NCBI RefSeq assembly: GCF_056712565.1
Contig: NZ_CM160072.1
Direction: 5' to 3' (one strand)
Length of the DNA: 64,000 bases
This document shows positions 62,719 to 63,176 of the stretch, in pieces. Positions within the stretch are counted from its first letter, which is position 1, and every line of letters begins with the position of its first letter. The translations under genes and the position numbers were made by a program. Below the pieces are notes generated by a model. That model worked only from the letters and a program-made list of their open reading frames with translations. It was not told the origin of the DNA and did not search any database.

Positions 62719-63176
62719 TTAACGACCTCAATTCCACGGGATCTGGTGGCGTTTAAAGTGTGTGGGCATTTTACGGGAAGGTTACATTACTGTAAACATG
62801 ATTAAATTCCTGTTACTTGGATTTGGCTATCAGGTCACATATGTTGCAAAACATATCAAGTTGATTTTAAGAAGCTGTTGCAAAAGGGCGTTATAACGAA
62901 AGGGGAGTGCAGAAGGAGTTTGGGTGGGCAATTGGTATAATCAATATAAAATAAAACAATTATTTAACAAATAATTATCATTGAGGTGACAACTGGGTGG
63001 TGAGAAAATAAGGACTCATTAGCTGAATCGTGTAAGAAAAATAGAATTCATAAATTGCGTCAATAATTTCCAAACGCTAAGCCGCACAAAAGAACAAATA
63101 TTAATAAGCGATGCTGATGTTTATTTAGCCGTAATAATTACGGCGAGTGATTACTACAGCTAAATAATATTACAGA

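What the first reader, a model, noticed from the sequence alone, without database searches (positions are those of the whole stretch)
62719..63176. 458-bp AT-rich control region upstream of cyoABCDE
The long spacer between cyoA and ampG contains extended A/T tracts (AATAAAATAAAACAATTATTTAACAAATAATTATCA). This fits the complex, multi-regulator promoter expected for the aerobic terminal oxidase operon.
Basis: partly seen in the sequence, partly recalled or inferred. Interest (0 to 1): 0.2.

Follow-up and report, generated by a model that had tools for sequence, protein, structure and literature searches.

The report
Known cyoABCDE promoter and control region
This AT-rich 458-bp gap is the well-studied control region of the E. 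coli cytochrome bo oxidase operon, and the quoted A/T tract is its strongest ArcA repressor site, so the finding is correct but ordinary.

Summary
Window 62719-63176 is exactly the 458-bp spacer between the ampG stop codon and the cyoA start codon, both on the minus strand. It has 35% G+C against 51% for the window. It is 100% identical to E. coli ATCC 11775 and about 96% identical to K-12.

The interpretation also holds. A sigma-70 promoter (TTTACA-17-TAAAAT) is perfectly conserved across Enterobacterales. It places the start site at about 62761, giving a 43-nt leader.

An ArcA matrix built from 113 published sites, with the cyo sites left out, puts its two best hits of the whole 64-kb window inside the quoted A/T tract. 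That tract is the published four-repeat distal ArcA site. The fifth-best hit lies over the -35/-10 hexamers.

A PdhR box, a Cra-like box and a CRP-type site are also present and conserved in other species. No FNR box exists, and published ChIP-seq classes the FNR effect as indirect through ArcA. No Fur box was found either.

The ampG-proximal 60 bp form a conserved stem-loop without a U tract.

All of this is already known for K-12. Minor extras are a weaker PdhR box allele shared by about 19% of complete E. coli genomes, an 11-bp deletion that shifts the CRP-type site by one helical turn, and a small covarying leader hairpin.

The parts
63121..63167 (-). Stem-loop immediately after the ampG stop codon (about 18 bp, AT-rich with a G+C clamp). 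It is probably the ampG transcript's 3'-end or termination structure. No U tract follows it.
   Evidence: The RNA fold gives -23 kcal/mol with z = -3.6, and 0 of 200 shuffles fold as well. Across 21 Enterobacteriaceae, 74% of cells are paired against 32-53% when the 3' partners are slid, and 10 pairs show changes on both sides. The terminator scan found no canonical terminator.
63083..63100 (-). Conserved block TATTTGTTCTTTTGTGCG (about -339 to -322) with no regulator assigned.
   Evidence: It stands out as a phylogenetic footprint in 22 Enterobacteriaceae spacers. No tested consensus hits it, and the ArcA matrix scores below 6 bits there.
63061..63072 (-). Conserved block TGGAAATTATTG (about -311 to -300) with no regulator assigned.
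   Evidence: AATTA is invariant in 22 Enterobacteriaceae.
63022..63037 (+). Cra (FruR)-like box GCTGAATCGTGTAAGA (-276 to -261).
   Evidence: It has 1 mismatch to RSTGAAWCSNTHHW (49 of 500 shuffles do as well) and 4 mismatches to the 16-bp palindrome (7 of 500). The GCTGAATC core is invariant in Enterobacteriaceae, and the 9-mer is found at a similar distance in all 10 Enterobacteriaceae spacers scanned. Cra regulation of cyoABCDE is stated in PMC5888115.
62950..62992 (-). Distal ArcA-P site with four direct repeats at 11-bp spacing (-231 to -189).
   Evidence: The ArcA matrix, built without the cyo sites, scores 18.9 bits at 62964-62981 and 18.0 bits at 62953-62970. These are the two best scores in the 64-kb window, and 7 of 2000 shuffles reach 18.9. 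It matches the published K-12 site cyoA3, which carries the strongest of the three ChIP-seq peaks, at 40 of 43 bases. A hit of at least 12 bits lies at about -262 to -276 from the ATG in most Enterobacteriaceae and Erwiniaceae.
62930..62946 (.). PdhR box AATTGGTataAtCAATa (-185 to -169).
   Evidence: It has 2 mismatches to AATTGGT-N3-ACCAATT, and 1 of 500 shuffles does as well. The K-12 box AATTGGTataACCAATg (13 of 14) was found by PdhR genomic SELEX. The box is conserved in Citrobacter, Salmonella, Enterobacter, Kosakonia and Shimwellia and is absent outside Enterobacteriaceae.
62889..62898 (.). Conserved perfect palindrome CGTTATAACG (-137 to -128) with no regulator assigned. It lies about 10 bp from the centre of the published box-less ArcA ChIP-seq peak cyoA2.
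   Evidence: GTTATAA is invariant in 22 Enterobacteriaceae. The cyoA2 peak centre at 451000 in the older K-12 numbering corresponds to window position 62884, and no ArcA box above 10 bits was reported there. My single-repeat ArcA matrix also stays below 6 bits.
62824..62839 (-). CRP-type site TGTGACCTGATAGCCA centred at -70.5, with a degenerate right half.
   Evidence: In the window alone it has 3 mismatches and is not above chance (431 of 500 shuffles). The TGTGAC half is invariant, however. The orthologous site is centred at -81.5 in 54 of 75 Enterobacterales loci and has 1 mismatch in Serratia, Rahnella, Yersinia, Photorhabdus and Proteus. cyoA is listed as a known CRP target in PMC3105977.
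62792..62806 (+). CpxR-like tandem GTAAAcatgaTTAAA overlapping the -35 hexamer (-45 to -31).
   Evidence: It has 1 mismatch to GTAAA-N5-GTAAA, and 53 of 500 shuffles do as well. Its second half is not conserved outside E. coli. Papers report CpxR binding at the cyo promoter.
62768..62799 (+). Proximal ArcA-P site with three direct repeats, covering the -35 and -10 hexamers (-38 to -7).
   Evidence: The ArcA matrix scores 13.4 bits at 62779-62796, fifth best in the window. The sequence is identical to the published K-12 site cyoA1, ATTTTACGGGAAGGTTACATTACTGTAAACAT.
62768..62796 (-). Sigma-70 core promoter cyoAp: -35 TTTACA (62796-62791), 17-bp spacer, -10 TAAAAT (62773-62768).
   Evidence: The promoter scan matches 10 of 12 consensus positions. 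The hexamers have zero mismatches and sit at a nearly fixed distance from the ATG in all 24 species scanned, and they are present in 74 of 80 loci. A K-12 sigma-70 ChIP-seq peak lies at 450871 (older K-12 numbering), aerobic 2629 against anaerobic 49.
62719..62761 (-). Inferred start site (+1 at 62761) and 43-nt leader. It contains a small hairpin CCAC/GUGG (62734-62749) and the Shine-Dalgarno sequence GAGG (62726-62729).
   Evidence: The start site is derived from the published ArcA site coordinates of -38 to -7 and from the position of the -10 hexamer. The leader is nearly invariant in Enterobacteriaceae. The hairpin has two covarying pairs (CG/AU) and 78% of cells paired, but the fold is not unusually stable (z = +0.3).

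Best explanation
The spacer is the orthologue of the E. coli K-12 cyoABCDE promoter and operator region, preceded by the 3' end of the ampG transcription unit.

One sigma-70 promoter (TTTACA-17-TAAAAT) starts transcription at about 62761, giving a 43-nt leader. When oxygen is scarce, phosphorylated ArcA binds direct repeats that cover the -35 and -10 hexamers (62768-62799). It also binds a stronger four-repeat site about 200 bp upstream (62950-62992), which is the quoted A/T tract. Together these shut the promoter off.

The upstream module also carries a PdhR box (pyruvate input) directly next to the distal ArcA site, and a Cra-like box (carbon-flux input). A CRP-type site one or two helical turns upstream of the -35 provides catabolite activation. 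CpxR may bind over the -35.

**Shown here:** the boundaries, composition, promoter hexamers, motif scores against chance, conservation across species, and identity to the K-12 sequences that carry published ChIP and SELEX signals.

**Inferred:** the start site in this strain, actual occupancy by the regulators, and cooperation or looping between the distal and proximal ArcA sites.
For: - **Boundaries and annotation:**
- **Composition:**
- **Promoter:** the hexamers are found by the scan, are perfectly conserved in 24 of 24 species scanned, and are present in 74 of 80 loci. The stretch from -85 to +43 is identical to K-12.
- **ArcA:** the matrix, built without the cyo sites, gives the two best hits of the 64-kb window in the quoted tract and the fifth best over the promoter. 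Shuffle controls give 7 of 2000 and 2 of 2000.
- **Published ArcA data (PMC3798270):** three ArcA ChIP-seq peaks upstream of cyo, predicted sites at -231 to -189 and -38 to -7, and 65-fold derepression in an arcA deletion strain.
- **PdhR:** 1 of 500 shuffles match as well, and PMC7660256 reports the box by SELEX.
- **Cra and CRP-type sites:** both are conserved in other species.
- **Sigma-70 occupancy:** a ChIP-seq peak 6 bp from the inferred start site is strong aerobically and nearly absent anaerobically.
- **No RNA family:** Rfam gives no hit.
Against: - Nothing was measured in this strain. The start site and all occupancies are carried over from K-12.
- The spacer differs from K-12 at about 4% of positions. 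One change falls in a core half-site of the PdhR box and three in repeat 1 of the distal ArcA site.
- The CRP and CpxR matches in the window are not above chance on their own.
- How regulators bound at -170 to -275 act on a promoter 200 bp away is not shown.
- Three conserved blocks have no assigned factor.
Confidence: 0.92

Rival explanations
1. A second, upstream promoter exists in this lineage inside the distal module: TTGTTA-16-TATATT at 62970-62943, starting near 62936. On this reading the distal ArcA repeats and the PdhR box act as ordinary overlapping operators rather than at a distance.
For: The promoter scan lists this hexamer pair on the cyo strand at 9 of 12 matches. The -10-like TATATT is created by two of the three lineage-specific substitutions; K-12 has TCACAT there. 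PdhR and ArcA sites overlapping a promoter would explain repression simply.
Against: The number of promoter-like hits in the spacer (3) is not above shuffles (2.1 +/- 1.2). The hexamers are not conserved in other Enterobacteriaceae. The K-12 sigma-70 ChIP-seq table lists a single cyoA peak, at the proximal promoter. K-12 represses through the same sites without this -10 hexamer.
Confidence: 0.06
2. FNR represses cyo directly by binding an operator in the spacer, as older genetic work and the first reader's check-list assume.
For: cyoABCDE expression depends on FNR, with about 36-fold change in Myers et al.. One low-resolution ChIP-chip call lies at 451133 in the older K-12 numbering, which corresponds to window position 63017.
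Against: The best match to TTGAT-N4-ATCAA has 3 of 10 mismatches, and 493 of 500 shuffles do as well. None of three ChIP-seq peak callers found a peak, and no matrix score was assigned. [quoted passage not shown]
Confidence: 0.05
3. The A/T tract is generic AT-rich, curved or nucleoid-protein-bound spacer DNA with no sequence-specific operator.
For: AT-rich intergenic DNA is common. Several consensus matches (CRP, CpxR, FNR) are at chance level in the window.
Against: Other stretches of the same window with equally low G+C reach at most 13.7 bits with the ArcA matrix, against 18.9 here. The TGT cores recur every 11 bp and are the conserved columns in 22 species. A ChIP-seq peak lies on the site.
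Confidence: 0.02
4. The spacer hides an unannotated gene, either a small protein or a small RNA such as an ampG 3'-UTR-derived RNA.
For: A stable, conserved stem-loop follows ampG. Six short ORFs of 20-44 aa lie entirely within the spacer.
Against: Rfam gives no hit apart from a chance-level miRNA match with E = 0.84. No feature is annotated here in ATCC 11775, in K-12 or under any of the listed matches. The conservation pattern is made of short blocks, not ORF-like. The short ORFs start with GTG or TTG and cross poorly conserved stretches.
Confidence: 0.03

Closest known systems
E. coli K-12 cyoABCDE promoter region (cyoAp), with ArcA sites cyoA1 and cyoA3 (Park et al. 2013, PMC3798270) and the PdhR box (Anzai et al. 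2020, PMC7660256)
   Same: It has the same flanking genes and nearly the same length (458 against 459 bp). The sequence from about -85 to the ATG is identical. The proximal ArcA site is identical, the distal site matches at 40 of 43 bases, and the PdhR, Cra-like and CRP-type sites sit at the same places.
   Different: There are 17 substitutions and one 1-bp indel within the spacer. The PdhR box is 12 of 14 instead of 13 of 14, with a G-to-A change in a core half-site. Repeat 1 of the distal ArcA site differs (CCTC against CTCT).
cydAB upstream region of E. coli, the other aerobic oxidase operon
   Same: It is also a long AT-rich upstream region with three separate ArcA ChIP-seq regions.
   Different: cydAB is activated by ArcA and has a genuine FNR ChIP-seq peak with a strong matrix score (-13.45). 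cyo is repressed by ArcA and has no FNR box or ChIP-seq peak.
ndh promoter of E. coli
   Same: It is a respiratory-chain promoter that combines a multi-repeat ArcA site with a PdhR box.
   Different: ndh also has a strong FNR site (-14.67). At cyo, the PdhR and main ArcA sites lie about 170-230 bp upstream of the start site.

Membership tests
Orthologue of the K-12 cyoAp sigma-70 promoter | -35 and -10 hexamers with 17-bp spacing at the K-12 position upstream of cyoA | tested here: met
   TTTACA-17-TAAAAT matches 10 of 12 consensus positions. The sequence is identical to K-12 from -85 to +43. The hexamers have 0 mismatches in 24 of 24 species scanned.
Orthologue of the K-12 cyoAp sigma-70 promoter | Experimentally mapped start site in this strain | not testable with these tools
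   The +1 at 62761 is inferred from published site coordinates and from the K-12 sigma-70 ChIP-seq peak at 450871.
ArcA-P-repressed promoters (ArcA regulon) | ArcA box: two or more TGTTA-type direct repeats at 11-bp centre-to-centre spacing, scoring above about 10 bits | tested here: met
   Scores of 18.9, 18.0 and 13.4 bits with a matrix that excludes the cyo sites. Shuffle controls give 7 of 2000 and 2 of 2000.
ArcA-P-repressed promoters (ArcA regulon) | A site overlapping the core promoter elements | tested here: met
   The proximal site 62768-62799 covers both hexamers.
ArcA-P-repressed promoters (ArcA regulon) | In vivo ArcA occupancy and arcA-dependent expression | not testable with these tools
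   This is published for K-12 only: three ChIP-seq peaks and 65-fold derepression.
PdhR regulon | Palindromic box AATTGGT-N3-ACCAATT | tested here: met
   12 of 14 positions match at 62930-62946, and 1 of 500 shuffles does as well. The box is weaker than the 13 of 14 box in K-12.
Direct FNR targets | FNR box TTGAT-N4-ATCAA | tested here: not met
   The best match has 3 mismatches, and 493 of 500 shuffles do as well. There is no ChIP-seq peak in K-12.
CRP class I promoters | TGTGA-N6-TCACA site centred near -61.5, -71.5 or -82.5 | tested here: inconclusive
   The window site has 3 mismatches at -70.5, which is at chance level. The orthologous site is at -81.5 in 54 of 75 loci, with 1 mismatch in 16 of them.
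Cra (FruR) regulon | Cra box RSTGAAWCSNTHHW | tested here: met
   13 of 14 positions match at 63022-63035. Shuffle counts are 49 of 500 for this consensus and 7 of 500 for the 16-bp palindrome. The core is invariant in Enterobacteriaceae.
Fur regulon (direct) | 19-bp Fur box GATAATGATAATCATTATC | tested here: not met
   No match with 6 or fewer mismatches. The literature reports a Fur effect on expression but no evidence of binding.
CpxR regulon | Tandem GTAAA-N5-GTAAA | tested here: inconclusive
   1 mismatch at 62792-62806, and 53 of 500 shuffles do as well. Binding is reported in papers.
Intrinsic (Rho-independent) terminator downstream of ampG | G+C-rich stem-loop followed directly by a U tract | tested here: not met
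   A stable conserved stem-loop is present, but UAAAUAAAC follows it and the scan finds 0 terminator-like sites.

The most novel reading that the evidence does not exclude
The region may hold control elements that nobody has assigned. These are a small covarying hairpin and conserved sequence in the 43-nt cyoA leader (62734-62749), which could be a post-transcriptional control point, and three deeply conserved upstream blocks with no known factor: CGTTATAACG at 62889-62898, TATTTGTTCTTTTGTGCG at 63083-63100 and TGGAAATTATTG at 63061-63072. In addition, the weaker PdhR box allele carried by about 19% of complete E. coli genomes could loosen pyruvate control of the oxidase in that lineage.
Probability: 0.2. 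Interest if true: 0.3.

Novelty: already known. Interest (0 to 1): 0.08.

Why it matters
The region sets how much of the proton-pumping cytochrome bo3 oxidase E. coli makes in response to oxygen, carbon source and envelope stress. It is already a well-studied example, so confirming it adds no new biology.

The small additions are these:
- The quoted A/T tract is specifically the main ArcA operator.
- FNR should not be expected to bind here.
- The core promoter, the distal ArcA site and a CRP-type site are conserved in position across Enterobacterales.
- A common E. coli lineage allele weakens the PdhR box.

Tried and rejected
- **Rfam:** a scan of 62400-63500 at E up to 1 gave only a chance miRNA match.
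- **FNR, Fur, IHF, HprR and GadE consensus scans:** nothing, or chance level.
- **Canonical terminator scan:** nothing found.
- **RNAalifold on the ampG 3' region:** no consensus structure, because the automatic alignment was poor. The stem was then tested by explicit pair counting.
- **Fold of the cyoA leader:** not more stable than shuffles (z = +0.3).
- **Single-repeat ArcA matrix:** used to explain the box-less ChIP-seq peak cyoA2 and the conserved CGTTATAACG, but the block stays below 6 bits.
- **Short ORFs in the spacer:** rejected as genes (together).
- **Papers not held in the library:** the PdhR footprint paper (Ogasawara 2007) and a dRNA-seq start-site paper. The start site therefore rests on Park et al.'s relative coordinates and on the sigma-70 ChIP-seq peak.
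- **Cra ChIP-exo supplement:** not held.

Full report
**Observation**

The cyoA ORF runs 61762-62718 on the minus strand. The ORF upstream on the same strand ends with its stop codon at 63177-63179. The spacer is 100% identical to E. coli ATCC 11775 (NZ_CP033092.2), where the flanking genes are annotated ampG and cyoA. It is present in 5424 of 5426 complete E. coli genomes at 90-100% identity. K-12 has 459 bp, with 17 substitutions and one 1-bp indel relative to the window's spacer.

G+C is 35.2% against 51.2% for the window. The quoted A/T string sits at 62945-62980 with one wrong first base.

**Core promoter**

The consensus scan finds TTTACA (62796-62791), a 17-bp spacer, and TAAAAT (62773-62768) on the cyo strand. 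Park et al. 2013 (PMC3798270) place their proximal ArcA site at -38 to -7. That sequence, ATTTTACGGGAAGGTTACATTACTGTAAACAT, is window 62768-62799, which puts +1 at 62761 and gives a 43-nt leader.

In K-12, a sigma-70 ChIP-seq peak lies 6 bp from that point. It is strong aerobically (2629) and nearly absent anaerobically (49).

I fetched 80 cyoA loci from other species. The same hexamers, without a single mismatch, lie at a nearly fixed distance from the ATG in all 24 species scanned, including Erwinia, Pectobacterium, Serratia, Hafnia and a Sodalis-like symbiont. A related pattern is present in 74 of 80 loci, and only the Aeromonas loci lack it. The stretch from -85 to +43 is identical between the window and K-12.

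**ArcA**

I built a log-odds matrix from 113 of the ArcA boxes published in Table S3 of Park et al., leaving out both cyo sites.

- Over the whole 64-kb window and both strands, the two best scores are 18.9 bits at 62964-62981 and 18.0 bits at 62953-62970.
- These two hits are 11 bp apart and lie inside the quoted A/T tract.
- The fifth best score, 13.4 bits at 62779-62796, lies over the promoter.
- Of 2000 dinucleotide-preserving shuffles of the spacer, 7 reach 18.9 bits and 2 have three hits of at least 13 bits.
- Other low-G+C stretches of the window reach at most 13.7 bits.

The tract matches the published four-repeat site cyoA3 (-231 to -189) at 40 of 43 bases. That site carries the strongest of three ArcA ChIP-seq peaks upstream of cyo, and cyoABCDE rises 65-fold in an arcA deletion strain. 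In 22 Enterobacteriaceae, the conserved columns of the tract are the TGT cores at 11-bp spacing. A strong hit lies at about -262 to -276 from the ATG in most Enterobacteriaceae and Erwiniaceae. In Serratia and Rahnella it is on the opposite strand.

**Other regulators**

- **PdhR:** AATTGGTataAtCAATa at 62930-62946 has 2 mismatches to the palindrome, and 1 of 500 shuffles does as well. The K-12 box, 13 of 14, was found by genomic SELEX.
- **Cra:** GCTGAATCGTGTAA at 63022-63035 matches 13 of 14 positions. Shuffle counts are 49 of 500 for that consensus and 7 of 500 for the 16-bp palindrome. Its core is invariant in Enterobacteriaceae, and Cra regulation of cyo is stated in PMC5888115.
- **CRP:** TGTGACCTGATAGCCA, centred at -70.5, is not above chance by itself (431 of 500). 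The TGTGAC half is invariant, though. The orthologous site is centred at -81.5 in 54 of 75 loci and has only one mismatch in Serratia, Rahnella, Yersinia, Photorhabdus and Proteus.
- **CpxR:** GTAAAcatgaTTAAA over the -35 has one mismatch and is near chance (53 of 500). Binding is reported in papers.
- **FNR:** the best match has 3 of 10 mismatches, and 493 of 500 shuffles do as well. Myers et al. 2013 found no ChIP-seq peak, only a ChIP-chip call with no matrix score. They list cyoABCDE among ArcA-regulated operons that respond to FNR without an FNR ChIP-seq peak.
- **Fur, IHF, HprR, GadE:** no match at the thresholds used.

**The ampG end of the spacer**

Positions 63121-63167 fold into an 18-bp stem-loop of -23 kcal/mol, with z = -3.6. 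The stem is kept in Enterobacteriaceae: 74% of cells are paired against 32-53% for slid controls, and several pairs show compensatory changes.

No U tract follows it, and the terminator scan finds nothing. I read it as the ampG 3'-end structure, not as a canonical intrinsic terminator. Rfam finds no RNA family in the spacer, and the short ORFs do not look like genes.

**Mechanism**

The best-supported reading is the known one. A single sigma-70 promoter is blocked by ArcA-P bound over its hexamers. A stronger distal ArcA site about 200 bp upstream helps, and PdhR and Cra sites sit beside that distal site. A CRP-type activator site lies between the two modules.

Occupancy, the start site in this strain, and any cooperation between the distal and proximal ArcA sites are inferred, not shown. 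A lineage-specific upstream promoter (TTGTTA-16-TATATT) is a weak rival. Direct FNR repression is not supported.

**Novelty**

All the main parts are published for K-12, so this is already known. The extras are listed under things noticed in passing.

**Verdict**

The finding is correct, ordinary and of low interest.

Noticed in passing
window 62930-62948: Three substitutions within 8 bp relative to K-12, at 62941, 62946 and 62948. One changes a core half-site of the PdhR box (ACCAAT to ATCAAT). The other two create a -10-like TATATT. The exact 50-bp allele is in 1019 of 5424 complete E. coli genomes, and the K-12-like form (90-95% identity) is in 3903.
   Followed up: partly
window 62806-62824, and loci L003 to L082 about 100-130 bp upstream of cyoA: Escherichia, Citrobacter and Salmonella lack 11 bp between the conserved TGTGAC element and the -35 hexamer. 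The CRP-type site therefore sits at -70.5 instead of -81.5, exactly one helical turn closer.
   Followed up: yes
window 62734-62749: A small hairpin in the cyoA leader is CCAC/GUGG in Enterobacteriaceae and GACAA/UUGUC in other families. Two pairs covary and 78% of cells are paired. It is broken in a few lineages (L024, L026, L027, L030, L031), and the fold is not unusually stable.
   Followed up: partly
window 62889-62898, 63061-63072 and 63083-63100: Three blocks conserved across Enterobacteriaceae match none of the tested regulators: CGTTATAACG, TGGAAATTATTG and TATTTGTTCTTTTGTGCG. The first lies about 10 bp from the published ArcA ChIP-seq peak that has no ArcA box.
   Followed up: partly
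window 61792-61818 (minus strand, 3' end of cyoA): A 9-bp unit, GAAGGTATG, is present three times here and twice in K-12. CyoA is therefore 318 aa instead of 315, with an extra Glu-Gly-Met near the C terminus.
   Followed up: partly
window 63121-63167: A conserved AT-rich stem-loop lies right after the ampG stop codon with no U tract behind it, so how ampG transcription ends before the cyo promoter is not obvious.
   Followed up: partly
window 62767-62781: The promoter spacer and discriminator (AACCTTCCCGTAAAATGCC) are conserved far beyond what the two hexamers need, across all Enterobacterales families sampled. Part of this is the proximal ArcA site; the rest is unexplained.
   Followed up: no
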